DNA of 18,039 bases from a virus (Duplodnaviria > Heunggongvirae > Uroviricota > Caudoviricetes): the IMG/VR virus record IMGVR_UViG_2693429706_000001. The stretch is one strand, 5' to 3'. Below the pieces are notes generated by a model. The model did no database searches, was not told where the DNA came from, and saw only the letters and a list, made by a program, of their open reading frames with translations. This document shows, piece by piece, positions 1 to 18,039 of this stretch (positions are counted from its first letter, which is position 1; the number at the start of each line of letters is the position of its first letter). The position numbers were made by a program, and so were the translations under genes.

Positions 1-756
1 TTGAGTGCGGGACGCCTGAATAAAAAATCTCTGGGTATCGTGATGTTGTTATCGGTTGGACTGCTTTTGGCGGGCTGTTCGGGTAGCAAATCATCCGATA
101 CAGGAACGTATTCCGGCTCCGTTTACACCGTGAAACGGGGGGATACGCTATATCGTATTTCGCGCACCACGGGAACCAGCGTAAAAGAACTGGCGCGACT
201 GAACGGCATTTCCCCCCCTTACACCATTGAAGTTGGTCAGAAACTAAAACTGGGTGGGGCGAAAAGTAGCAGTATTACACGTAAATCAACCGCCAAATCA
301 ACGACCAAAACCGCATCGGTTACACCGTCATCAGCGGTACCGAAATCATCCTGGCCGCCAGTAGGGCAACGTTGTTGGTTATGGCCAACGACAGGGAAAG
401 TTATCATGCCGTATTCGACAGCAGATGGCGGCAATAAAGGGATTGATATCTCAGCTCCACGGGGTACACCTATTTACGCCGCGGGTGCAGGAAAGGTGGT
501 GTATGTGGGCAACCAGCTGCGTGGCTACGGTAATCTCATCATGATTAAACACAGTGAAGATTACATTACGGCTTACGCCCATAATGACACGATGCTGGTA
601 AATAATGGGCAAAGCGTGAAGGCTGGGCAAAAAATCGCCACTATGGGGAGCACGGATGCGGCATCTGTTCGCCTGCATTTCCAGATTCGTTACCGTGCAA
701 CGGCAATTGATCCGCTACGTTACTTGCCGCCGCAGGGCAGCAAGCCAAAATGCTGA
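1..756 (+). CDS. ygeR: LysM-domain / M23 (LytM)-family peptidase lipoprotein, YgeR-like
   Basis: 251-aa ORF with signal peptide ending in lipobox LLAGC, a LysM motif (YTVKRGDTLYRISR...LARLNGI) and a C-terminal M23-type peptidase region; lies directly upstream of tRNA-Gly as in the E. coli ygeR-glyU locus. First codon is TTG at window position 1, so the true start and upstream context are not visible. Confidence 0.85.
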   Translation: MSAGRLNKKSLGIVMLLSVGLLLAGCSGSKSSDTGTYSGSVYTVKRGDTLYRISRTTGTSVKELARLNGISPPYTIEVGQKLKLGGAKSSSITRKSTAKSTTKTASVTPSSAVPKSSWPPVGQRCWLWPTTGKVIMPYSTADGGNKGIDISAPRGTPIYAAGAGKVVYVGNQLRGYGNLIMIKHSEDYITAYAHNDTMLVNNGQSVKAGQKIATMGSTDAASVRLHFQIRYRATAIDPLRYLPPQGSKPKC

Positions 757-834
757 TGGCGAATTAATCAGCAGTCAGCAGCGCGGCACTTGCTAAGGAG
801 AGCGTAAGGTTTATAATGCCTTACGCATCTCGAA

Positions 835-908
835 GCGGGCGTAGTTCAATGGTAGAACGAGAGCTTCCCAAGCTCTATACGAGGGTTCGATTCCCTTCGC
901 CCGCTCCA
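835..908 (+). tRNA. glyU: tRNA-Gly (anticodon CCC)
   Basis: 74-nt sequence GCGGGCGTAGTTCAATGGTAGAACGAGAGCTTCCCAAGCTCTATACGAGGGTTCGATTCCCTTCGCCCGCTCCA with acceptor stem, D-loop, anticodon loop CTTCCCAAG, T-loop GGTTCGATTCC and encoded CCA end; matches my recollection of E. coli glyU. Confidence 0.92.
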
Positions 909-1308
909 ATTTATCTTCACCTCATCAATCTGCCATTTTTGCTGTATCTGATTTTCTATATTATCTTAATTCAATCGCTTCAGACTTTTCGCAATCGCCG
1001 TAATATTTCCCCATTTTGTTGTAAATAAAAAGCGTTTACGCAATGCAATCCTTTTGTAACAACCCAGGTAAAACACCTTATTTTCAAGTTGTTAAATAAG
1101 TGGTTATCTACGCTTTTAACAAACGATTGATGGAATATTTTATGAAAGGGAAATCTGCATTAACTCTTCTGCTCGCTGGTATATTTTCGTGCGGCACATG
1201 CCAGGCGACAGGGGCAGAAGTGACGAGTGAATCTGTATTTAACATTCGGTAATGACTCCAACTTATTGATAGTGTTTTATGTTCAGATAATGCCCGATGA
1301 CTTTGTCA

Positions 1309-1318
1309 NNNNNNNNNN
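1309..1318. other. assembly gap (run of 10 N)
   Basis: Ten consecutive n characters; the ORF track translates them as XXXX inside a minus-strand ORF. Confidence 0.99.
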
Positions 1319-1618
1319 TCCGACCAGACTCTGCAGGTCTTCCGCCATCGCGGTGACCATGCCGTGCAGGTTAGAAACCGTCAGTGTCGGACGGGCAGCA
1401 CTGCCCTTGCCGTTCAGTTCAAATCCCGTCCCCTGAATGGGATACGCCTGATACTGTCGCCCCTGCCAGGTGATCGGCTCACCTTTTTCGTTCTGCTCAT
1501 TACAGAAAAAATAACGTTCTCCACCGACCACTGTCAGATCGATTTCCCAGAGCACCACCTGGGCTGACTGAGTGAGGCGTGTCGTCTCATGATGTGTTTC
1601 CTGTGGAATATCCTGCAT
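1319..1618 (-). CDS. minor tail protein L, N-terminal part only (truncated by assembly gap)
   Basis: MQDIPQETHHETTRLTQSAQVVLWEIDLTVVGGERYFFCNEQNEKGEPITWQGRQYQAYPIQGTGFELNGKG... is near-identical in pattern to the lambda gpL N-terminus; AGGAG lies 6 nt upstream of the ATG at 1618. Reading frame runs into the N-run; residues translated beyond the gap do not resemble gpL. Confidence 0.8.
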
Positions 1619-7521: not shown

Positions 7522-7797
7522 TTACTCAATAAAGATCATTGGCTTACCGTTAAAACGTTCATGCCGTGTGACCGTCCATTGTTGTCCGTCATAAACAACG
7601 CGATCCCCGCGCCGTGGGCGGTATCCCGAAGAAAACACCACCAGAGAGACCGCAGGTCCGGACAGAGCATTCAGCTCTGCCAGTGTTTCGCCCGGGATCA
7701 CAGCCATATCGACATCATTAATCGAGGCTGTCTTTCCCATCTTTCTGACCGTGATCGCATCCATACGCGCTGCCAGCCGGGAAAAGGGATCAGACAT
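7522..7797 (-). CDS. head-tail joining / tail attachment protein (lambda FII-like)
   Basis: 91-aa ORF in the FII position; weak pattern similarity to lambda FII (N-terminal F-x-x-L-x-x-A, PRRGD...W.V.R motif). Confidence 0.6.
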   Translation of the reverse strand: MSDPFSRLAARMDAITVRKMGKTASINDVDMAVIPGETLAELNALSGPAVSLVVFSSGYRPRRGDRVVYDGQQWTVTRHERFNGKPMIFIE

Positions 7798-8113
7798 TGA
7801 GTTTTACCGGCACTTCTTCTGCACTGGTTCCGGCATCTGCCCAGACAACCCCGACCAGCGGATCAGAGCCGCTGTTAGTCAGCTGAACTTTTCCGGACTT
7901 CAGATAAACCTTCTTACCCGTTTTCATGTCATCCGTTTTCAGTTTAGGCAGGATAAACACACCTTCGGTCATGCCGTCGCCTGTTTCACCCTGTGGAATA
8001 TCGGTCAGCGCCACCGCAAAAACATCACCCACCTGCACCAGATCTCCGCTGCTGATGGCTGCACTGGCAACAATCGCCACCGTTTTTCCTTCTTCTACAA
8101 AATTCTTTGCCAT
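7790..8113 (-). CDS. DUF2190-family small head protein (possible decoration/stabilisation protein)
   Basis: MAKNFVEEGKTVAIVASAAISSGDLVQVGDVFAVALTDIPQGETGDGMTEGVFILPK...; GGAGA lies 5 nt upstream of ATG 8113. The longer ORF-track start at 8158 would run through two hairpins. The family name is from memory. Confidence 0.6.
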   Translation of the reverse strand: MAKNFVEEGKTVAIVASAAISSGDLVQVGDVFAVALTDIPQGETGDGMTEGVFILPKLKTDDMKTGKKVYLKSGKVQLTNSGSDPLVGVVWADAGTSAEEVPVKLNV

Positions 8114-8156
8114 AACTGTCTCCGCACAGCCCCGTTCAGGGGCTGATTTCAGGTAC

Positions 8157-8175
8157 AAAAAAAGCCCTTACGGGC
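8157..8175 (-). terminator. intrinsic terminator immediately after the major capsid gene
   Basis: Minus-strand GCCC-GTAA-GGGC (GNRA-type tetraloop) followed by TTTTTTT; begins 25 nt after the capsid stop codon at 8200. Confidence 0.6.
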
Positions 8176-8199
8176 CATCAGAGTTGTTGTCTGCGACGT

Positions 8200-10209
8200 T
8201 TACGCCGTACATTTCACCAGACCGCGGTGATCAACTGGCGCGACACCGGCGTCAATACGCACTTTCGTTGTCACGCCATCCACACTGAAGCCCTCCATCT
8301 GATCAATATATGGCGTATCCACACCGTTGAGATAAGCCACTTCAATCGTATCGGAGCCTTTTGACGCAGCCAGGTAGAAGGTGGTCTGGCTGTTATCATC
8401 AAGACGAGGCTCTGCAATAACGGTCGCAAAATCTTTCACCGGGTTAATAATACCGGCGTTAATGTCAGCCCCCTTGACACTTGAGGAGCGAATGACCTGG
8501 TTAGCAACAGACTCCATCGCCGTCGGTACCAGTACGAACGCAGGACGAATATTCAGATGACGCTCCCCCTCTTTCTGAACGCGCATCAACTGGCGGGCTT
8601 TATCCAGCGATGCCACGTCCATTGCAGCGCTCTCCAGTACGTTTGCATGTTTCGCTTTATCGAACAGACTTACATTATCTGTGGAGATTTTCGGGTTAGA
8701 CGTCAGAATGGCATAAACCAGATCGGCAATAGTGGATTTCGCCGCACGGCCCAGTTTCATCGGGACATCGGTCAGCATATTCAGATCATCATTGATAATG
8801 GCCTGACGGGTGATACTGAACAGCTCGCCATAGGTCGCCAGTGCAATAGTGGCCTGTTTATCTCCGGTGGTGACGTATTTATATTCCGCCCCTTCACGCA
8901 CCTGACGCAGAGCACTGAAGCCACCCATACCCACACGATGGGCAATTTTAAAATCAGACAACTGACCTTTCCGCGTCCACTGTTCATAGGTTTCAGGGGC
9001 ATCTTCCCAGCCCTGCAGAATGGCTTTGTTCGCAACATCCAGCAGAATATTACCGAAGTCAGACGTACTGTGTGTGAACGCCGCACCGACCATCTGCATC
9101 GGGTTATAACTGGAAACCCCAATACCCCGTTCAGTCAGTGACATACGGGCATATTCACGCAGGGTCATCCCGTTGTAGACATTATCACGTTCGGTTTTTT
9201 CAAATCCGGCACGCGCCATCAGCGCCTGGCGGATCCCGTCCCCCACAAAATTACCGTTACCGGCATAAATATGAGCCGGGGTATTTTTATTGGATGGCGT
9301 GGACTCGCGCCCCATCTCGTTCAACAGCTTTTCGCGGGCCTGCTCCAGCGAACATTCAGGATCGGCAAGACACTGAGCCTGCAGCGTCTGATAACGCCCG
9401 CCAAACATGGCAAACAGATCATTAATACCGTTTACACGCGCTTTTTGCTCTGCCAGTACCTGCGCACGGATGCTGTTTTCATCCACCACGGGTGCTGCTG
9501 CCTGCACTGGCGTCCGGGAGGCTTCAGGTTCATTATCCTGTACGCGTGGAGCACTGTTGCGTGGCGGAGTAATCATGTTTCGAATGGATTCCGGCATCTT
9601 TTTAAATTCCTCTGTACGTTTTGACTGAATACATGCCATTGCCTTAACGGCTGGCGTTACCTGATCAGCAAATCCATGTGCCAGACATTCGGCACCGGAC
9701 ATCCAGGTCTCATCCGCCAGCATGGCAGCAATTTCATCGGTGGTTTTCCCGGTTTTCTGTGCATAAGCGGGTAACAGAACCGCCTCAACTTTATCGAGCA
9801 GGTCGGCATAGGTGCGCATGTCCTCCGCATCACCGCCCGTAAAGCCAAATGGTTTATGAATCATCATGAAGGTGTTTTCCGGCATAATGACCGGGTTTCC
9901 CACCATCGCAATGACCGACGCCATTGACGCCGCCACACCGTCGACATAAACGGTAATGGACGCACCATGTGTTTTCAGCGCATTAAAAATGGCGATGCCT
10001 TCAAAGACATCGCCACCCGGTGAATTAATATGGAGATTAATGTGGGTGATATCGCCCAGTGCATTCAGATCACTGATAAACTGCTTCGCTGTAACACCCC
10101 AGAAACCAATCTCGTCATAAATATAAATATCCGCGTCACTCTGGTGACCAGCCTGCATCCTGAACCAGGAATTATTCTTCGGACTGGTCGTCGGTGTGCT
10201 GCGGCTCAT
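8200..10209 (-). CDS. fused prohead protease (ClpP/S14-like) - scaffold - HK97-fold major capsid protein
   Basis: N-terminal region has ClpP hallmarks (INSPGGDVFEGIAIFNAL..., VDGVAASMASVIAMVG with the nucleophile Ser, MIHKP with the His); a central Ala/Gln/Glu-rich linker; the C-terminal ~300 aa resemble a phage major capsid protein. Start uncertain: ATG 10209 overlaps the portal by 38 nt, the alternative ATG at 10158 lies 13 nt after the portal stop; neither has a strong Shine-Dalgarno. Confidence 0.8.
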   Translation of the reverse strand: MSRSTPTTSPKNNSWFRMQAGHQSDADIYIYDEIGFWGVTAKQFISDLNALGDITHINLHINSPGGDVFEGIAIFNALKTHGASITVYVDGVAASMASVIAMVGNPVIMPENTFMMIHKPFGFTGGDAEDMRTYADLLDKVEAVLLPAYAQKTGKTTDEIAAMLADETWMSGAECLAHGFADQVTPAVKAMACIQSKRTEEFKKMPESIRNMITPPRNSAPRVQDNEPEASRTPVQAAAPVVDENSIRAQVLAEQKARVNGINDLFAMFGGRYQTLQAQCLADPECSLEQAREKLLNEMGRESTPSNKNTPAHIYAGNGNFVGDGIRQALMARAGFEKTERDNVYNGMTLREYARMSLTERGIGVSSYNPMQMVGAAFTHSTSDFGNILLDVANKAILQGWEDAPETYEQWTRKGQLSDFKIAHRVGMGGFSALRQVREGAEYKYVTTGDKQATIALATYGELFSITRQAIINDDLNMLTDVPMKLGRAAKSTIADLVYAILTSNPKISTDNVSLFDKAKHANVLESAAMDVASLDKARQLMRVQKEGERHLNIRPAFVLVPTAMESVANQVIRSSSVKGADINAGIINPVKDFATVIAEPRLDDNSQTTFYLAASKGSDTIEVAYLNGVDTPYIDQMEGFSVDGVTTKVRIDAGVAPVDHRGLVKCTA

Positions 10210-11680
10210 GTCGTTTCGTTGCGGCACTGCTGCCTCCTTTATCACTGGCCGGATCGGTATCAAATACCAGATCCAGCTTGCGGTTTTCATCAATTTCGGC
10301 CTTGCGCCGACGTTTGACATCATCCGGATTACGACCACCAGCACGTACCCAGTCTGATTCTGTCGCCGCTCCACCACGAATCTGGATTTTCCAGGCCTCA
10401 GCCTCCTTAACAGGGTCAATCCACGGCATCACCGGTCCGGAATACACCGCGGTATACAGTGAAGAACGGTCAAGATCGCGGGGTAGCCTGATAACACCGG
10501 ATGCCACAGCCTGTTTCAGCCAGGCACGATACATCGGACGGGTGACGGCACCAATAAACCAGTCCTGCAGGATCAGGTAGCCATCAGTGGATTCAACCAG
10601 CTCCTGACGCTGGGCGCTGTAAGTGCCGTTATAGTTGCGCGCTGTACTGGAAAAACTCAGACGACTGCCCGCCGCCACGGCACGCAACTGACCATTACGA
10701 AAAGTTTCAAGGTTAGGATTGGGGCGATCCGACTTCACCATTCCGATTTCTTCGCCGGGTTTCAGATCATCGTAAATAATGCCTGGCTGAATGGTAAGCT
10801 CGCGTTCCTTATCCTTGCTGCCATTACCATCCGCTTCATAGCTCTGCCCGTCGCCTTTCCGGATGTACATCCCCAGAGCAGCGGCGATCCTTGCTGCAGT
10901 CAGCTCAGAATCTTCATACTCTTTCAGAGCACTGAGGCGGATCAGCACACCGGACAATAAAGACGTCCCGCGCATCTGGTGCAGACGGCGAACAAATTTA
11001 AGATGCAGCATTCGCTCTGCATCCACTTCTTTGGTTTCCATCTGCCGTCCGGATACGGGACGGCTTTTATACACCAGATATTTTTCGGGACGCCCCCAGT
11101 CATCAACAAACACGCCCTGATTCAGCCTGTTGCTCTCATCACTGGTCATGGGAATAAAGTCCGGCTCGAGCGCCTCCAGCCAGAAATGAACACCGGCAGA
11201 AGGCGTCAGGCTGTTTATGCGCCCGGAAACCATCTGGGCAAACACCTCACCATCGCGCAGCCAGGTACGAAGCATCAGACGTTCCAGCATCGGACGGGTA
11301 AACTGCCCGGTGACTTCCGGGCTGACAGACCATTCACTCCATCGGGTGCGAATCTCCGCAGCCAGGTCACGGGCAATGGCCCCATTGCGTAATACCGGAT
11401 GTGGCTCGACAATAATCCCGTTTTTCCCCACCACCCGTTCTTCCAGCTTGTCAAATACACCAATAACCAGATCGTGGTTGTTATCAAGGTAACGGGCCTG
11501 CTCACGTAACGACACGGCCCCGTACTGGCTTAACTGGTCGGCAGTTCGGTTCTCCCGTCGGGCTTTGTGTGTCCGCGTCGTTTTTACGGCCTCATAAGCC
11601 TGGATCACCGCACGGGAACGCAGCCTTGCCGCTTTCCATCCTGGTGAAAAAACGCCAATCACATCATCAAGAATTGCCAT
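10172..11680 (-). CDS. portal protein (lambda gpB family)
   Basis: 502-aa ORF in the portal position between gpW-like and protease genes. Start set at ATG 11680 (MAILDDVIGVFSPGW...) with GAGG 5 nt upstream and a 1-nt overlap with the W stop (TGATG). Confidence 0.85.
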   Translation of the reverse strand: MAILDDVIGVFSPGWKAARLRSRAVIQAYEAVKTTRTHKARRENRTADQLSQYGAVSLREQARYLDNNHDLVIGVFDKLEERVVGKNGIIVEPHPVLRNGAIARDLAAEIRTRWSEWSVSPEVTGQFTRPMLERLMLRTWLRDGEVFAQMVSGRINSLTPSAGVHFWLEALEPDFIPMTSDESNRLNQGVFVDDWGRPEKYLVYKSRPVSGRQMETKEVDAERMLHLKFVRRLHQMRGTSLLSGVLIRLSALKEYEDSELTAARIAAALGMYIRKGDGQSYEADGNGSKDKERELTIQPGIIYDDLKPGEEIGMVKSDRPNPNLETFRNGQLRAVAAGSRLSFSSTARNYNGTYSAQRQELVESTDGYLILQDWFIGAVTRPMYRAWLKQAVASGVIRLPRDLDRSSLYTAVYSGPVMPWIDPVKEAEAWKIQIRGGAATESDWVRAGGRNPDDVKRRRKAEIDENRKLDLVFDTDPASDKGGSSAATKRHEPQHTDDQSEE

Positions 11681-14524: not shown

Positions 14525-14811
14525 AAGCAACTCCATCTGGCAGGTGAAAATCAGGTTTATTTATATATTTCAATTAATTGCAAACTAGTCTAATGACAGG
14601 GAGAAAAAAATATTGTACAGCTGAAAAGAGAAATAACTTTTAATTATCAATAAATTACCAAACATGCTGCCGCCGCCATGGAAATGCAAAAACTAGCCTT
14701 TTTCCGCGACGCTCCCGCCCCGTGGCAGGGACCCCCACTGGGAGGACCCGACAGCCTGACAACCGTGACGAGCATCTGAAACAGAGCTTTACATAATGGC
14801 ATGGGGATAAT

Positions 14812-15003
14812 TCAGAAGGACATCACAGCATGCCCACACAAATTAGTGTGAGTGTCCTGTTTCTTACTACGCGCAGGACTGACGAGCATGAGGGGAAAAT
14901 ACGAGAACCGAAATGCCTTATCTTCAGAAATGCAGCCGGCATCCGAACTGGACGATATTGTAAATTCACCTAAATACGAGGCATTGCTGTAGTTGAATTG
15001 CAT
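14812..15003 (-). CDS. hypothetical 63-aa ORF (weak)
   Basis: ATG-initiated ORF with no recognisable Shine-Dalgarno and a low-complexity product; listed only because it lies in the cargo region. Confidence 0.2.
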   Translation of the reverse strand: MQFNYSNASYLGEFTISSSSDAGCISEDKAFRFSYFPLMLVSPARSKKQDTHTNLCGHAVMSF

Positions 15004-15086
15004 TGCTGTATTAGCCTGACAGTGACAGAATACGATATTGACTCTGTCACTTGTGAAATGGTCAGAATGGTTAGCAGTTATGGTGA

Positions 15087-15293
15087 TCAGTCAACCACCA
15101 GGGAATAATCCTTCGTATTCTTATCGTGCTTTACTAACGCGGCCTCAATTGCCCTGAATGCTTCCAGAGACACTTGATGTTCTATACATGCAATTACAAC
15201 ATCCGGGTAACCCATCGAAATGGTGCTATTAAGCATAGTTTTTACACGAACCTGCTCCTGGGAGGGGGCATCAGTGTATTGATCTTTATGCAT
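15087..15293 (-). CDS. hypothetical small protein (68 aa), uncharacterised moron
   Basis: ATG at 15293 preceded by GGAG with a 7-nt spacer; product [68 protein letters not shown]. Size and position upstream of terS recall the YbcW/YnfO-type small proteins of DLP12/Qin, but I cannot confirm this from memory. Confidence 0.45.
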
Positions 15294-15500
15294 TTTGTCG
15301 CTCCATGCGTTTGCTCTTCACTTACGGCTAAAAATATAACGTCAAATCACTCAGCATGAAAGAGTTAAAGATTCAGCGCGTTTCCCTTACATAATCTGTC
15401 GTTTGTATTCTCTTCAGGCATACCGGAAAGACTAGGTATTGTCACACAACCAATACCATCGACAATCGAGATTTATACCTATTCGGTAATGTTTAAATAT

Positions 15501-15523
15501 AACAAAACCCCGTAAAAACGAGG
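15501..15523 (-). terminator. possible intrinsic terminator downstream of the gns-like gene
   Basis: Minus-strand CCTCG-TTTTTA-CGGGG (5-bp stem with one G-U pair) followed by TTTTGTT, about 60 nt after the gns-like stop. Confidence 0.3.
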
Positions 15524-15586
15524 TTTATGGGTAATTTGTATTGTTGAATAGCATCTGATGAGAAATTGATGCTAATACTAAACAGA

Positions 15587-15760
15587 CTAGATTAAATCAA
15601 TCTTGATATCATAGCTTTCAAGACCAGTCATTTTTTCCCGTGCAGTAAACTGGATACTGGTAACTTCTTTCCCGGTCTTTTTCTTAAGCTCAATGATTTT
15701 TTTTGTTATATATTCAGAAATATCTGCTTCTGTTTTTGTTTTTAACTCTTCAATGTTCAT
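15587..15760 (-). CDS. GnsA/GnsB-family small protein (57 aa)
   Basis: MNIEELKTKTEADISEYITKKIIELKKKTGKEVTSIQFTAREKMTGLESYDIKIDLI is collinear with E. coli GnsA/GnsB (MNIEEL...TGKEV...FTAREKMTGLESYD.KI); start at the second ATG (15760), 4-5 nt after AAGAGGA. Confidence 0.85.
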   Translation of the reverse strand: MNIEELKTKTEADISEYITKKIIELKKKTGKEVTSIQFTAREKMTGLESYDIKIDLI

Positions 15761-15932
15761 CATTTCCTCTTTTAGTCTGTTATGACTTTCCTGGTACACA
15801 GTAGTGTCAATTATATGGAGCAAACGTATAAAAGATAAGATGAAACATCGCAATAATCAACATACGACGGTCTAAATTTCACACAAACAGATAAAGATGA
15901 TTATCATTTATTATCAATGCATTAGAATCAAA

Positions 15933-16124
15933 TCAATTCAAGAGTCTCATTGCTGCTTCCAGAATTTCTTCTGAAGTTACATGTCGATCCGCTGCTACAT
16001 AAATGACTTTATGATCTCCGGTCAGAGATGGAAACCCTGCAGCCATTACAGTGAGGTGTGTTGTTTCGCCATTTGGATATTCACGCATGATGGTGTTAAC
16101 TCCGGTCATCACTGGCACTACCAT
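15933..16124 (-). CDS. hypothetical small protein (63 aa) in the position occupied by ynfN in Qin
   Basis: ATG-initiated ORF MVVPVMTGVNTIMREYPNGETTHLTVMAAGFPSLTGDHKVIYVAADRHVTSEEILEAAMRLLN between the csp and gns-like genes; no family recognised by eye. Confidence 0.5.
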   Translation of the reverse strand: MVVPVMTGVNTIMREYPNGETTHLTVMAAGFPSLTGDHKVIYVAADRHVTSEEILEAAMRLLN

Positions 16125-16208
16125 TGCTGGTTCAGAGTTAAAAAAAACTATTATTTTTTTTCATAATGTTACCGTAATATGTGAGTATCCATCGACTAGA
16201 CACTAAGC

Positions 16209-16228
16209 AAAAAAGCTCCCGAAGGAGC
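16209..16228 (-). terminator. intrinsic terminator ending the csp transcription unit
   Basis: Minus-strand GCTCC-TTCG-GGAGC (UUCG tetraloop) followed by TTTTTT, immediately after the stop of the zinc-ribbon mini-ORF and about 210 nt after the csp stop. Confidence 0.7.
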
Positions 16229-16236
16229 CTTCATTT

Positions 16237-16452
16237 TCACTTTCTTAAATCTAACGATAGACGGCTAACATTTAAGTATTGTGAAATATTATCAAATGTA
16301 ATCATCATTGATTTACAAAAGATACATTTTGCCCCGAAAGGATTCCTGTCAGAAACATCAAAAGATGATGTTCTATACTGAGAACCATGGCAACACGGGC
16401 ATCTAAAGTGAATATGGTTTGTAATATTTTCTACCTCAAAGTGCCACAACAT
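16237..16452 (-). CDS. candidate zinc-ribbon small protein (71 aa; paired CPCC and CIFC motifs)
   Basis: ORF in a different frame whose ATG (16452) lies inside the last codons of csp (17-nt overlap); product [50 protein letters not shown].... Directly followed by a strong terminator. Position matches the small proteins reported next to cold-shock genes (YmcF/YnfQ type), but identity is not confirmed. Confidence 0.35.
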
Positions 16453-16648
16453 GAACAGCCGCGGGGCCTTTAGGTCCGTTCTCAATACCAAATTCGACTT
16501 CCTGATTCTCAGTTAACGTTTTGAAATCGTTGCTCTGAATAGCTGAGAAATGGACAAACACATCTTTGCTACCATCTTTCGGCGTGATGAAACCAAAACC
16601 TTTTTCAGGGTTAAACCATTTCACTAAACCAGTCATTTTGTTAGACAT
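16436..16648 (-). CDS. cold-shock protein, CspA family (CspI/CspB-like)
   Basis: [70 protein letters not shown] has the RNP1 motif (KGFGFI) and RNP2 motif (VFVHF) of the cold-shock domain; AAGG Shine-Dalgarno upstream of a tandem ATG ATG. Confidence 0.93.
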
Positions 16649-16850
16649 CATTATTACCTTTTGAAGAAGTTAGCCCTTGGGCAGAATGGTCCGAAAAAAA
16701 ATATCAGAGAGAAAAACCAACAAGGAAATCTCAAGAGGTACAAATAATAAAATTATAACAATGACTGCTTCAGATAATTTTGTAACAAACCAGAACACCA
16801 TTAACGCATGATTAACCAACCATAGCAAGGATTACTTTTGTAAAGAAAAA
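16649..16850 (-). promoter_or_regulatory. putative csp promoter and long AT-rich 5' leader
   Basis: About 360 nt of AT-rich non-coding sequence separates the Rz stop from the csp start. CspA-family genes characteristically have long regulatory 5' UTRs, but I did not locate exact promoter or cold-box motifs. Confidence 0.3.
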
Positions 16851-17011
16851 CACACGAATGAAACAATAGCTTTATTTATTAATAAAACGTGTCATTCTGT
16901 CTAATGACCTTTTATCTTACCCTTAAGATTTCAAGGATTTTGACTCATGGAAGAGTCCTTTTTATTTAAATTTCACATTCAGCGCTAAAAATAATCCGAT
17001 TTAATATTAAT

Positions 17012-18039
<1,028 letters not shown>

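What the first reader, a model, noticed from the sequence alone, without database searches (positions are those of the whole stretch)
8200..10209. Single ORF fusing a ClpP-type prohead protease, a scaffold-like linker and the major capsid protein
In lambda these functions are split across C, Nu3, D and E. Here one roughly 670-aa ORF has a ClpP-like N-terminus (Ser in AASMAS, His in MIHKP), an Ala/Gln/Glu-rich central segment and a capsid-like C-terminal domain. This implies autoproteolytic release of the capsid domain during maturation. The start codon is ambiguous (10209 inside the portal gene, or 10158), which is worth resolving.
Basis: partly seen in the sequence, partly recalled or inferred. 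Interest (0 to 1): 0.45.

Follow-up and report, generated by a model that had tools for sequence, protein, structure and literature searches.

The report
Known prophage protease–scaffold–capsid fusion gene
This is the already described "tripartite" head gene of Gifsy-2-like lambdoid prophages, which puts the capsid-maturation protease, a scaffold segment and the major capsid protein in one reading frame. It is very common in E. coli, and the only fresh point is that all relatives keep an internal start signal, which suggests the gene makes two proteins.

Summary
The ORF is real: minus strand, stop at 8200-8202, uninterrupted. Its N-terminus is a ClpP-like (S14) domain and its C-terminus a Phage_capsid_4 / Mu gpT-like capsid domain.

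It is not new. Its DNA is identical to a RefSeq CDS named [quoted passage not shown]. It scores 986 bits against NCBIfam NF045540 (cut-off 475). 2125 of 5426 complete E. coli genomes hold a match. It differs by 2 residues from the viable phage Ayreon. It is 70% identical to the Gifsy-2 tripartite capsid gene (Effantin 2010).

GTG 10227 (AAGGAGG, 5-nt spacer, 675 aa) is conserved. ATG 10209 is unique to this window. ATG 10158 lies downstream of an invariant Trp.

One addition: codon 211 (ATG 9597-9595) is invariant in 68/68 fusions. In 37/37 non-redundant sequences it follows AGGA at a 9-10 nt spacing in 36 of them (7 nt in one). The G of that motif is the only invariant third base among about 610 degenerate codons. 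The surrounding mRNA is the least structured part of the gene.

I infer nested translation: a long protease-scaffold-capsid form and a short scaffold-capsid form (465 aa). This is untested, and I could not check whether it has been published.

The parts
8200..10227 (-). Full ORF: ClpP-like prohead protease, scaffold-like segment and major capsid protein. 675 aa, 73.6 kDa. GTG start, TAA stop at 8202-8200.
   Evidence: Identical to the RefSeq CDS for WP_023281930.1.
10233..10239 (-). Shine-Dalgarno AAGGAGG, 5 nt upstream of GTG 10227. It lies inside the 3' end of the portal gene.
   Evidence: The same AAAGGAGG-N5-GTG is present in the Eeyore and Stx2d-phage lineages. 24/36 non-redundant homologues have a start with an SD of at least 5 nt, 15-42 codons upstream of the invariant Trp (20 of them at 19-31 codons).
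10207..10209 (-). Not conserved.
   Evidence: Met in 1/21 aligned relatives; the others have R, S or W. Phage Ayreon has Arg here. No SD upstream.
10156..10158 (-). Unlikely to be the start.
   Evidence: Met in only 35/68 homologues, otherwise Ile/Leu/Phe. The codon is ATG in 16/36 non-redundant sequences. An invariant Trp21 lies upstream of it (68/68).
9640..10158 (-). ClpP-like (MEROPS S14-type) protease domain, residues about 24-196. Ser101 is at 9925-9927, His124 at 9856-9858 and Glu173 at 9709-9711.
   Evidence: Pfam and NCBIfam, alignment to solved ClpP chains, S101/H124/E173 invariant in 68/68.
9608..9612 (-). Internal SD-like GAGGA (core AGGA at 9608-9611), 10 nt upstream of ATG 9597.
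   Evidence: An SD-like motif is present in 37/37 non-redundant homologues, against 0-2/37 upstream of 10 other conserved Met codons. Codon 206 is GAG, AAG or CAG, and its third base is the only invariant one among about 610 degenerate codons.
9595..9597 (-). Internal in-frame ATG (Met211), the proposed start of a 465-aa scaffold-capsid product (50.7 kDa).
   Evidence: Invariant in 68/68. Codons 204-218 supply 13 of the 15 least-structured mRNA positions of 627. The homologous residue is M, L, V or H in unfused proteases.
9073..9597 (-). Scaffold-like central region, residues 211-385. It comprises a conserved tail with the MP motif (211-222), a hypervariable P/A-rich spacer (223-250; 9478-9561), a helical segment (251-310; 9298-9477), an indel hot spot (315-317) and a conserved pre-capsid segment (319-385).
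   Evidence: Conservation map, domain identities. AF2 helices at 250-304 have pLDDT 62-83; the rest of the model is unusable.
8212..9099 (-). Major capsid protein domain (Pfam Phage_capsid_4, residues 377-672), distantly related to Mu gpT-type capsid proteins.
   Evidence: E 2.3e-54. Profile search of solved structures hits chains 8rkx, 8rkc (E about 2e-9) and 9jod (E 2.1e-7).
8153..8176 (-). Terminator-like hairpin GGCCCGTAAGGGCT followed by a T-run, just after the stop codon.
   Evidence: A terminator is annotated at the same place in phage Ayreon.
7790..8113 (-). Separate head decoration / cement gene (DUF2190, Phage_cement_2), the functional counterpart of lambda gpD.
   Evidence: 61% identical to the Gifsy-2 homologue.
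10172..11680 (-). Lambda-family portal gene, whose last 56 nt overlap the start of the fusion ORF in another frame.

Best explanation
This is the Gifsy-2-type 'tripartite' head gene of an E. coli lambdoid prophage. It lies in a lambda-like late operon: TerS, TerL, gpW-like, portal, this gene, decoration protein, then tail genes.

Shown by sequence: translation from GTG 10227 would give a 675-aa protein with three parts. The first is a ClpP-like serine protease (Ser101, His124, and Glu173 at the position of ClpP's catalytic Asp). The second is a central segment of about 175 residues. The third is a C-terminal capsid domain of about 300 residues.

Inferred by homology to Gifsy-2 and by analogy to HK97 and lambda: the central segment acts as a covalently attached scaffold, like the HK97 delta domain. 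It drives assembly of a T=7 procapsid with the protease inside. The protease then digests the internal protease and scaffold parts. That leaves a mature capsid protein of roughly 31-39 kDa, which expands and is cemented by the separate decoration protein.

Inferred from comparative evidence obtained here (my estimate: about 0.6 that it is real): the gene is also read from the internal ATG at codon 211. That would give a protease-less scaffold-capsid protein of 465 aa. The protease would then be delivered by a minority of long-form subunits, as in lambda C/Nu3 and herpesvirus UL26/UL26.5.
For: Identity of the gene:
- NF045540 986 bits against a cut-off of 475; PHROG_133 matched end to end.
- DNA identical to a RefSeq CDS with that product name.
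- 70% identical to the Gifsy-2 gene. Two held papers cite Effantin 2010 for the fused protease and coat gene and for a trimeric decoration protein. A third lists Gifsy-2 as T=7.

Functionality:
- Only 2 residues differ from phage Ayreon, a viable temperate siphovirus with capsids of about 57 nm.
- Catalytic Ser and His are invariant in 68/68 homologues.

Start codon:
- AAGGAGG-N5-GTG is conserved in three lineages about 22% diverged in DNA.
- Gene calls in 20 relatives begin at the same position.

Internal start:
- Met211 is invariant in 68/68.
- An SD-like motif precedes it in 37/37 non-redundant sequences, against 0-2/37 for 10 control Met columns.
- The amino acid at codon 206 varies (E, K or Q) but its third base is always G. 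It is the only such site among about 610 degenerate codons.
- Codons 204-218 supply 13 of the 15 least-structured mRNA positions of 627, with z > 0 in essentially all 37 sequences.
- In unfused ClpP-like prohead proteases the homologous residue is M, L, V or H, and the one with Met has no SD-like motif upstream.
- The unfused relative Dulem virus 34 has a separate S78 protease gene and a 513-aa protein whose capsid domain starts at residue 189. That is the same layout as the predicted 465-aa product.
- A second fusion family with a different protease also keeps an ATG at the junction in 14/14 non-redundant members, with an SD-like motif in 11/14.
Against: - There is no protein-level evidence here for processing, for the cleavage site or for the short form.
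- I could not read Effantin 2010. What it showed about products and cleavage rests on citing papers and on my memory of its abstract.
- The internal SD is weak: a 4-5 nt core and a long 9-10 nt spacer.
- Pro212 and the neighbouring residues belong to a protein motif that is also present in unfused proteases.
- Most of the low mRNA structure comes from amino-acid composition. Against synonymous shuffles the effect is modest (z 0.3-0.6, against -0.14 +/- 0.26 for controls).
- The AF2 model was unusable (mean pLDDT 35.8), so the folds rest on profile matches.
- The window is a draft scaffold whose prophage contig breaks inside gene L, so the completeness of this particular prophage is unknown.
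Confidence: 0.85

Rival explanations
1. The gene makes only the full-length 74-kDa polyprotein. All roughly 415 shell subunits carry their own protease and scaffold, and the conserved AGGA/ATG at codons 206-211 reflects a protein motif or a translational pause site at a domain boundary, not initiation.
For: P212 and the [FY]xx[MLVH]Pxx[ILV] motif are also conserved in unfused ClpP-like prohead proteases. The SD core is short and its spacer long. The synonymous-shuffle signal for reduced structure is modest. A full-length-only procapsid is physically possible: 415 x 42 kDa is 17.5 MDa, about 21,000 nm3, against 39,000-65,000 nm3 for an inner radius of 21-25 nm (the radii are my assumption).
Against: The residue before Pro is M, L, V or H in unfused relatives but Met in 68/68 fusions. 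Codon 206 changes amino acid (E, K, Q) yet keeps its third base, uniquely in the gene. The same ATG plus SD arrangement recurs in an independent fusion family.
Confidence: 0.3
2. The long ORF is an artefact: a frameshift, a sequencing error or an assembly join that fuses separate protease and capsid genes.
For: The window is a scaffolded draft with an N10 gap at 1309-1318. Databases do hold artefact-like 1159-aa portal-protease-capsid fusions.
Against: The ORF is identical in many complete genomes. The architecture is conserved end to end in 63 loci from other species at 49-99% identity and in 80 phage records. The N gap is 6.9 kb away.
Confidence: 0.01
3. The N-terminal domain is a dead ClpP relic used only as extra scaffold mass, and maturation is done by a host protease or by no protease.
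For: It falls far below the cut-offs of the genuine ClpP models (TIGR00493 59.7 bits against 308.6). The position of ClpP's catalytic Asp holds Glu.
Against: Ser101, His124 and Glu173 are invariant in 68/68 sequences that are otherwise down to 49% identical. It exceeds the cut-off of the dedicated phage model NF045542, 'head maturation protease, ClpP-related' (215.8 against 120). The unfused phage proteases mostly share Glu at that position.
Confidence: 0.04
4. This copy is a decaying gene of a cryptic prophage and has no present function.
For: The prophage contig in the window ends inside gene L. Relatives are often damaged: IS629 sits in the VT1-Sakai copy and frameshifted 1159-aa variants exist.
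Against: The ORF is intact and differs by only 7 nt and 2 aa from the viable phage Ayreon. The break in gene L is a scaffold gap, not a deletion.
Confidence: 0.1

Closest known systems
Gifsy-2 tripartite capsid gene (STM1034.3n in NC_010393; Effantin et al. 2010, Virology 402:355)
   Same: Same three-part order (ClpP-like protease, central segment, capsid domain). 70% identity over residues 18-674; capsid part 87.5%. Same neighbours: a lambda-type portal upstream with overlap, and a DUF2190 decoration gene downstream that is 61% identical. The internal AGGAG-N9-ATG is present there too.
   Different: The protease (63%) and the scaffold segment (45-51%) are much more diverged than the capsid part. 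The start context differs: Gifsy-2 is annotated from an ATG without a strong SD. Codon 24 is Ile in Gifsy-2.
NCBIfam NF045540, 'ClpP-like prohead protease/major capsid protein fusion protein' (PHROG_133)
   Same: Matches the model end to end at twice the cut-off. PGAP gives this name to the identical CDS.
   Different: Nothing of note. This is a typical member.
HK97 gp4 protease plus gp5 (delta domain fused to the capsid protein)
   Same: A covalently attached N-terminal scaffold that a phage protease removes inside the prohead (established knowledge). The predicted 465-aa short form has exactly this layout.
   Different: The HK97 protease is a separate gene of a different family (S78). HK97 uses chainmail cross-links and has no decoration protein. 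The capsid Pfam family differs (Phage_capsid PF05065 against PF25209).
Lambda C/Nu3 nested genes, with E and D
   Same: Lambda-type portal and terminase, a separate decoration protein on the shell, and a protease joined to a scaffold with a proposed in-frame internal start that yields a protease-less product.
   Different: Lambda gpC is an S49 (SppA-like) protease, not an S14 one. In lambda the capsid protein E is a separate gene. Here the nested product would include the capsid protein itself.
NF045541-type fusions (for example Ralstonia phage YO122_2) and Dulem virus 34
   Same: Homologous scaffold and capsid part (27-33% identity over the scaffold-capsid segment; Phage_capsid_4). A junction ATG with an SD-like motif is present in most members.
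   Different: The N-terminal protease is not ClpP-like. Dulem virus 34 has a separate Peptidase_S78 gene. The Ralstonia N-terminus has no Pfam hit. The window protein falls below the NF045541 cut-off (400.6 against 525).

Membership tests
ClpP-like prohead protease / major capsid protein fusion (NCBIfam NF045540; Gifsy-2 tripartite capsid gene family) | Whole-protein score above the curated cut-off of the family model | tested here: met
   986 bits against a cut-off of 475, residues 26-668 matched to profile positions 2-651 of 652.
ClpP-like prohead protease / major capsid protein fusion (NCBIfam NF045540; Gifsy-2 tripartite capsid gene family) | One uninterrupted ORF with an N-terminal ClpP-like domain and a C-terminal capsid domain | tested here: met
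   The DNA is identical to an annotated RefSeq CDS.
ClpP-like prohead protease / major capsid protein fusion (NCBIfam NF045540; Gifsy-2 tripartite capsid gene family) | Full-length homology to the experimentally studied Gifsy-2 protein | tested here: met
   70% identity, residues 18-674 aligned to 28-695.
ClpP-like prohead protease / major capsid protein fusion (NCBIfam NF045540; Gifsy-2 tripartite capsid gene family) | Head-module context: lambda-family portal upstream and a DUF2190/cement decoration gene downstream | tested here: met
ClpP-like prohead protease / major capsid protein fusion (NCBIfam NF045540; Gifsy-2 tripartite capsid gene family) | Proteolytic removal of the protease and scaffold parts, giving a mature shell protein in a T=7 decorated capsid | not testable with these tools
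   Needs virion and prohead protein analysis. The Gifsy-2 paper is not held. T=7 for Gifsy-2 comes from a table in PMC8814770.
Housekeeping ClpP (ATP-dependent Clp protease proteolytic subunit, TIGR00493) | Score above the equivalog cut-off | tested here: not met
   59.7 bits against 308.6. All ClpP equivalog and subfamily models score below their cut-offs.
Housekeeping ClpP (ATP-dependent Clp protease proteolytic subunit, TIGR00493) | Ser-His-Asp catalytic triad | tested here: inconclusive
   Ser101 and His124 align with the catalytic Ser and His. The Asp position (E. coli D171 by my count of the mature sequence, from memory) holds Glu173, which is invariant in 68/68. The neighbouring D172 is not conserved.
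Phage head maturation protease, ClpP-related (NCBIfam NF045542; MEROPS S14 phage clade) | Score above the domain-model cut-off, with catalytic Ser and His kept | tested here: met
   215.8 bits against 120. S101 and H124 are invariant.
HK97-fold major capsid protein (Pfam Phage_capsid_4 PF25209; distant Mu gpT-like) | Profile match above the gathering score | tested here: met
   185.9 bits against 27; Mu-like_gpT 33.4 against 20.1. The profile hits solved Mu GpT-domain capsid chains 8rkx and 8rkc at E about 2e-9.
HK97-fold major capsid protein (Pfam Phage_capsid_4 PF25209; distant Mu gpT-like) | HK97 fold seen in a structure model | tested here: inconclusive
   The AF2 model from a 21-sequence alignment had mean pLDDT 35.8 and pTM 0.22, and residues 307-675 were all below 50. 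No fold search was run on it.
Nested head-assembly genes with an in-frame internal start (lambda C/Nu3 type) | Conserved in-frame start codon with a ribosome-binding site inside the longer ORF | tested here: met
   ATG211 in 68/68, an SD-like motif upstream in 37/37, a unique invariant third base, and the mRNA structure minimum of the gene.
Nested head-assembly genes with an in-frame internal start (lambda C/Nu3 type) | The shorter protein is actually made | not testable with these tools
   Needs N-terminal proteomics or start-site ribosome profiling.

The most novel reading that the evidence does not exclude
The 'tripartite' capsid genes are not simple polyproteins but nested genes. A conserved internal ribosome-binding site and ATG at the protease/scaffold junction (codon 211 here) would produce a protease-less scaffold-capsid protein as the bulk shell subunit. 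The full-length form, which starts inside the end of the portal gene, would supply a minority of protease-carrying subunits. The same arrangement in an independent fusion family with a different protease would make this a general rule for protease-capsid fusions: the fusion kept the start of the downstream gene. The probability given is for this being both real and not already described. I could not read the Gifsy-2 paper to check.
Probability: 0.35. Interest if true: 0.45.

Novelty: already known. Interest (0 to 1): 0.3.

Why it matters
As written, the finding adds nothing new. The fusion was studied in Gifsy-2 in 2010, has its own NCBIfam model and PGAP product name, and has a match in about 39% of complete E. 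coli genomes.

Two practical points follow:
- Public annotations of this very gene disagree on the start. Ayreon uses the equivalent of 10158, one phage record calls a start far upstream, and PGAP uses 10227. The comparative evidence favours the PGAP call.
- If the conserved internal start is used, it answers a standing puzzle for such fusions: how the number of proteases per procapsid is kept below the number of shell subunits. It would also mean these genes are under-annotated, with one CDS where two products exist. That can be tested directly in the culturable phages Ayreon, mEp460 or Gifsy-2.

Tried and rejected
- **Reading Effantin 2010.** The paper is not held. Six literature searches found only papers that cite it, and none gives the cleavage site or the products.
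- **Structure prediction.** AF2 on a 21-sequence alignment (76-96% identity) gave mean pLDDT 35.8. I used the model only for the helices at 250-304 and ran no fold search. I chose not to spend further large database searches to deepen the alignment, because the family assignment was already decisive.
- **Solved structures by sequence.** Only ClpP chains matched the N-terminus, and only distant Mu gpT-type capsids matched the C-terminus. No close solved capsid exists.
- **The 1159-aa portal+protease+capsid proteins in the database.** I considered a programmed frameshift and rejected it. In the five sequences I read, the junction is at a different place each time, so these are independent indels within the 245 nt where the fusion frame is open upstream. 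The 1159-aa length fits a 1-nt deletion.
- **Prophage apparently truncated in gene L by IS1.** Rejected. There is an N10 scaffold gap at 1309-1318.
- **Cleavage site.** Two candidate boundaries remain, and I could not decide between them. One is the indel hot spot at 315-317. The other is about 375-388, where the Pfam capsid model and the Mu gpT alignment begin; an HK97-like N-arm length of about 45 residues before the putative E-loop (my own reading of the sequence) points the same way.
- **Selection on mRNA structure around codon 211.** The region is the structure minimum of the gene. The synonymous-shuffle control shows only a modest excess, so I treat this line as supportive, not decisive.
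Full report
**1. The observation**

The minus strand carries one uninterrupted reading frame that ends with TAA at 8202-8200. It stays open upstream as far as 10419.

Pfam places a CLP_protease domain at residues 25-185 (E 2.7e-36) and a Phage_capsid_4 domain at residues 371-666 (E 2.3e-54). There is also a weaker Mu-like gpT match. PHROG_133 matches end to end (1201 bits). A second PHROG is literally named 'major head and protease protein'.

The AASMAS serine and the MIHKP histidine align with the catalytic Ser and His of solved ClpP chains.

**2. It is not an artefact and not a dead gene**

- The 2028-nt ORF is base-for-base identical to a RefSeq CDS in E. coli strain 104.
- The 2010-nt query is 100% identical in many complete genomes. 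2125 of 5426 complete E. coli genomes hold a match, and 2017 of them cover at least 80% of it.
- It differs by 7 nt and 2 aa from the gene of phage Ayreon. Ayreon is an inducible temperate siphovirus with icosahedral heads of about 57 nm, isolated on a K-12 derivative (PMC5764929).
- mEp460, cdtI, Tritos and other phages carry it at 98.6% identity or more. Stx-converting phages carry a version about 78% identical.

**3. What it is**

NCBIfam NF045540, 'ClpP-like prohead protease/major capsid protein fusion protein', scores 986 bits against a cut-off of 475. The phage-specific domain model NF045542 ('head maturation protease, ClpP-related') scores 215.8 against 120. All genuine ClpP models score far below their cut-offs, for example TIGR00493 at 59.7 against 308.6. 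PGAP gives the fusion name to this exact gene.

The protein is 70% identical over residues 18-674 to the Gifsy-2 gene annotated as a Clp protease involved in capsid processing. The downstream DUF2190/cement gene is 61% identical to its Gifsy-2 neighbour.

Two held papers cite Effantin et al. [quoted passage not shown] A third lists Gifsy-2 as T=7. The paper itself is not held. My memory of its abstract (a ClpP-like N-terminus, a central domain of about 200 residues with a possible scaffolding role, a C-terminal capsid protein, and HK97-like plus lambda-like features) is a lead, not a tool result.

The surrounding genes are a lambda-type head module. They are a DUF1441 small terminase, a gpA-type large terminase, a small gpW-like ORF, a lambda-family portal, this gene and the decoration gene. 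A Gifsy-2-family (PF13856) head-tail gene, tail genes and a tape measure follow.

The lambda D counterpart is therefore a separate gene.

**4. The start codon**

There are three candidates.

- **GTG 10227.** It is preceded by AAGGAGG with a 5-nt spacer. ATG 10209 and ATG 10158 have no usable SD.
- The AAAGGAGG-N5-GTG arrangement is identical in two other E. coli lineages about 22% diverged in DNA (Eeyore and an Stx2d phage). This holds even though it lies inside the poorly conserved C-terminal tail of the portal gene.
- **ATG 10209.** Among 21 aligned relatives, codon 7 is Met only in this window. Elsewhere it is R, S or W, and it is Arg in Ayreon. So it is a private substitution.
- **ATG 10158.** Codon 24 is Met in 35/68 homologues and Ile, Leu or Phe in the rest. 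Trp21, upstream of it, is invariant in 68/68. The codon is ATG in only 16/36 non-redundant sequences.
- In 24/36 non-redundant sequences a start codon with an SD of at least 5 nt lies 15-42 codons upstream of that Trp. In 20 of them it lies at 19-31 codons.

I conclude that the start is GTG 10227 (675 aa, 73.6 kDa), as PGAP calls it. It overlaps the portal gene by 56 nt. Residue numbers below use this start.

**5. Anatomy from 68 homologues**

One scan of species-representative genomes returned 79 loci, and 63 of them carry the full-length fusion. They come from Enterobacterales, Pasteurellaceae, Shewanella, Pseudomonas and others, at 49-99% identity. The conservation map gives:

| Residues | Feature |
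|---|---|
| 24-196 | Protease |
| 197-222 | Conserved tail, AMACIQSKRxEEFxxMPESxxNMITPPR |
| 223-250 | Hypervariable Pro/Ala-rich spacer with indels |
| 251-310 | Moderately conserved segment, the only part AF2 modelled with any confidence (three helices, pLDDT 62-83) |
| 315-317 | Indel hot spot |
| 319-675 | Continuous high conservation; the Pfam capsid model starts at residue 377 |

Ser101, His124 and Glu173 are invariant, while Asp172 is not. Glu173 sits where ClpP has its catalytic Asp (alignment; the count to E. coli D171 uses the mature ClpP sequence from memory). Most unfused phage ClpP-like proteases also have Glu there.

Only distant solved relatives exist for the capsid part: Mu GpT-domain capsid chains 8rkx and 8rkc (E about 2e-9) and 9jod (E 2.1e-7).

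**6. A conserved internal start**

I looked for in-frame starts with an SD inside the ORF. One stood out in every lineage examined: ATG at codon 211 (window 9597-9595), preceded by GAGGA at 9612-9608. The evidence is as follows.

- Met211 and Pro212 are invariant in 68/68.
- In 37/37 sequences less than 85% identical to each other, an AGGA-containing motif precedes the ATG, 9-10 nt upstream in 36 of them and 7 nt in one. Ten other conserved Met columns have such a motif in 0-2 of 37.
- The residue encoded by codon 206 varies among Glu, Lys and Gln, which differ in charge. The codons are always GAG, AAG or CAG.
- Of 610 codon columns classed as degenerate, three have an invariant third base. 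Two of those are essentially Met columns, which leaves codon 206 as the only genuine one. That is a constraint on the nucleotides, not on the protein.
- Predicted mRNA structure in 48-nt windows is weakest in codons 204-218. These supply 13 of the 15 least-structured of 627 aligned positions, with positive z in essentially all 37 sequences.
- Against synonymous-codon shuffles the excess is modest: z 0.3-0.6, against -0.14 +/- 0.26 for 24 control positions. Most of the openness therefore comes from the encoded residues.
- In unfused ClpP-like prohead proteases the homologous motif is [FY]xx[MLVH]Pxx[ILV]. The Met is not kept there, and the one member with Met has no SD-like motif upstream.
- The unfused relative Dulem virus 34 has a separate Peptidase_S78 protease gene. 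It is followed by a 513-aa protein whose Phage_capsid_4 domain begins at residue 189. The predicted internal product has the same layout: 465 aa, 50.7 kDa, with the capsid domain starting at its residue 167.
- A second fusion family has a different, non-ClpP N-terminus (Ralstonia phage YO122_2 and IMG/VR relatives, 39-98% identical to it). All 14 non-redundant members have an ATG at the junction, and 11 of the 14 have an SD-like motif.

**7. Mechanism**

*Shown:* the three-part sequence, the conserved catalytic residues, the family membership, the conserved upstream and internal initiation signals, and the separate decoration gene.

*Inferred from homology to Gifsy-2 and from established HK97 and lambda biology:* the central segment acts as a tethered scaffold that places the protease inside a T=7 procapsid. 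The protease then digests the internal parts. The shell expands and binds the decoration protein.

*Inferred from section 6, at about 0.6:* two products are made. The short scaffold-capsid form is the bulk subunit. The long form delivers the protease, which is the logic of lambda C/Nu3 and herpesvirus UL26/UL26.5. The long form starts inside the end of the portal gene, a low-copy protein, which would fit low output. That last point is speculation.

A full-length-only procapsid is not excluded on volume grounds. 415 x 42 kDa is 17.5 MDa, or about 21,000 nm3, against 39,000-65,000 nm3 for an assumed inner radius of 21-25 nm.

*Not determined:* the maturation cleavage site. The candidates are the indel hot spot at 315-317, giving a 39-kDa product, or about 375-388, giving 31-32 kDa. 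I favour the latter. It is where the Pfam model and the Mu gpT alignment begin, and it leaves an HK97-like N-arm of about 45 residues before the putative E-loop (my own reading of the sequence).

**8. Comparison and novelty**

This is a typical member of a named family whose prototype has been studied by cryo-EM. The finding as written is already known.

- It works like HK97 in having a delta-domain-type tethered scaffold. The protease family differs, and it uses a decoration protein instead of chainmail.
- It works like lambda in portal, terminase, decoration protein and the protease-scaffold linkage. The difference is an S14-type protease instead of an S49 one, and a capsid protein that sits in the same frame.

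The only possibly new element is the conserved internal start. I could not check whether the Gifsy-2 paper already discusses it.

**9. Verdict**

Novelty: already known. Interest 0.3. That score is carried mainly by the start-codon resolution and by the well-supported, directly testable nested-gene hypothesis.

Noticed in passing
window 1-1320: The window is a scaffold join. Positions 1309-1318 are N10. Positions 1-1308 are chromosomal: actS (LysM/M23), tRNA-Gly(CCC) at 835-908, the start of ygeQ and a 61-nt IS1 end. The prophage contig begins at 1319 in the middle of the minor tail gene L. The apparent truncation of the prophage is therefore an assembly gap, not biology.
   Followed up: yes
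window 10172-10419 (portal 3' end, where the fusion frame is open upstream): The protein database holds a dozen or so gene calls of 1135-1159 aa that join portal, protease and capsid. In the five I read, the junction is at a different position each time. They look like independent indels (the 1159-aa length fits a 1-nt deletion) in the 245 nt where the fusion frame is open upstream, not a programmed frameshift.
   Followed up: yes
window 7790-11680 compared with L003 (Gifsy-2), L005 (Eeyore) and L006 (Stx2d phage): There is a mosaic junction inside the fusion gene. Portal, protease and scaffold are closer to the E. coli Stx-phage and Eeyore types (78-80%, 76-86% and 69-77%) than to Gifsy-2 (64%, 64% and 51%). 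The capsid domain and the decoration protein are closer to Gifsy-2 (87.5% and 60%) than to those phages (70-74% and 47-50%). The switch falls around residues 380-420, near the proposed scaffold/capsid boundary, so capsid plus decoration seem to travel as one module.
   Followed up: partly
L007 and L089-L117 (Ralstonia phage YO122_2 and IMG/VR relatives): A second protease-scaffold-capsid fusion family has a non-ClpP N-terminus and a homologous Phage_capsid_4 part. It also keeps an ATG at the protease/scaffold junction in 14/14 non-redundant members, preceded by an SD-like motif in 11/14.
   Followed up: partly
L077-L088 (unfused ClpP-like prohead proteases): The relatives show the other two known layouts. 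Cupriavidus, Azospirillum and Geminicoccus have a 335-363-aa protease with a long C-terminal extension; in Azospirillum griseum and Geminicoccus it is followed by an ORF with a DUF2190-like N-terminus (lambda-like layout). Clostridia and Bacilli have a 228-270-aa protease followed by a 380-510-aa ORF with a charged, apparently helical N-terminus; one of them tested is a Phage_capsid (PF05065) protein (HK97-like layout).
   Followed up: partly
window 8153-8176, minus strand: A terminator-like hairpin with a T-run lies right after the capsid stop codon and before the decoration gene. Phage Ayreon has a terminator annotated at the same place. It may set the capsid-to-decoration expression ratio.
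   Followed up: partly
AP000400.1 (phage VT1-Sakai), hit H25: The homologous gene in the Stx1 phage of E. coli O157 Sakai is interrupted by IS629. The annotated pieces carry separate names, including 'scaffolding protein'.
   Followed up: no
window 7522-7797, minus strand: The 91-aa gene after the decoration gene matches Pfam PF13856, a family named 'Gifsy-2' and described as 'ATP-binding sugar transporter from pro-phage'. RefSeq calls its counterpart 'DNA breaking-rejoining protein', and Ayreon calls it a putative FII-like head-tail joining protein. By position the last is the most plausible, so the other two names look wrong.
   Followed up: no
window 14600-18039: Upstream of the terminase genes lies a lysis region with a phage lysozyme (17506-18039, running off the window end) and a DUF2514 Rz-like gene (17012-17509). 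This stretch is 90-93% identical to a prophage region of E. coli strain 104 that is annotated with Qin-type genes (rrrQ, rzpQ, cspI, ynfN, gnsB).
   Followed up: partly
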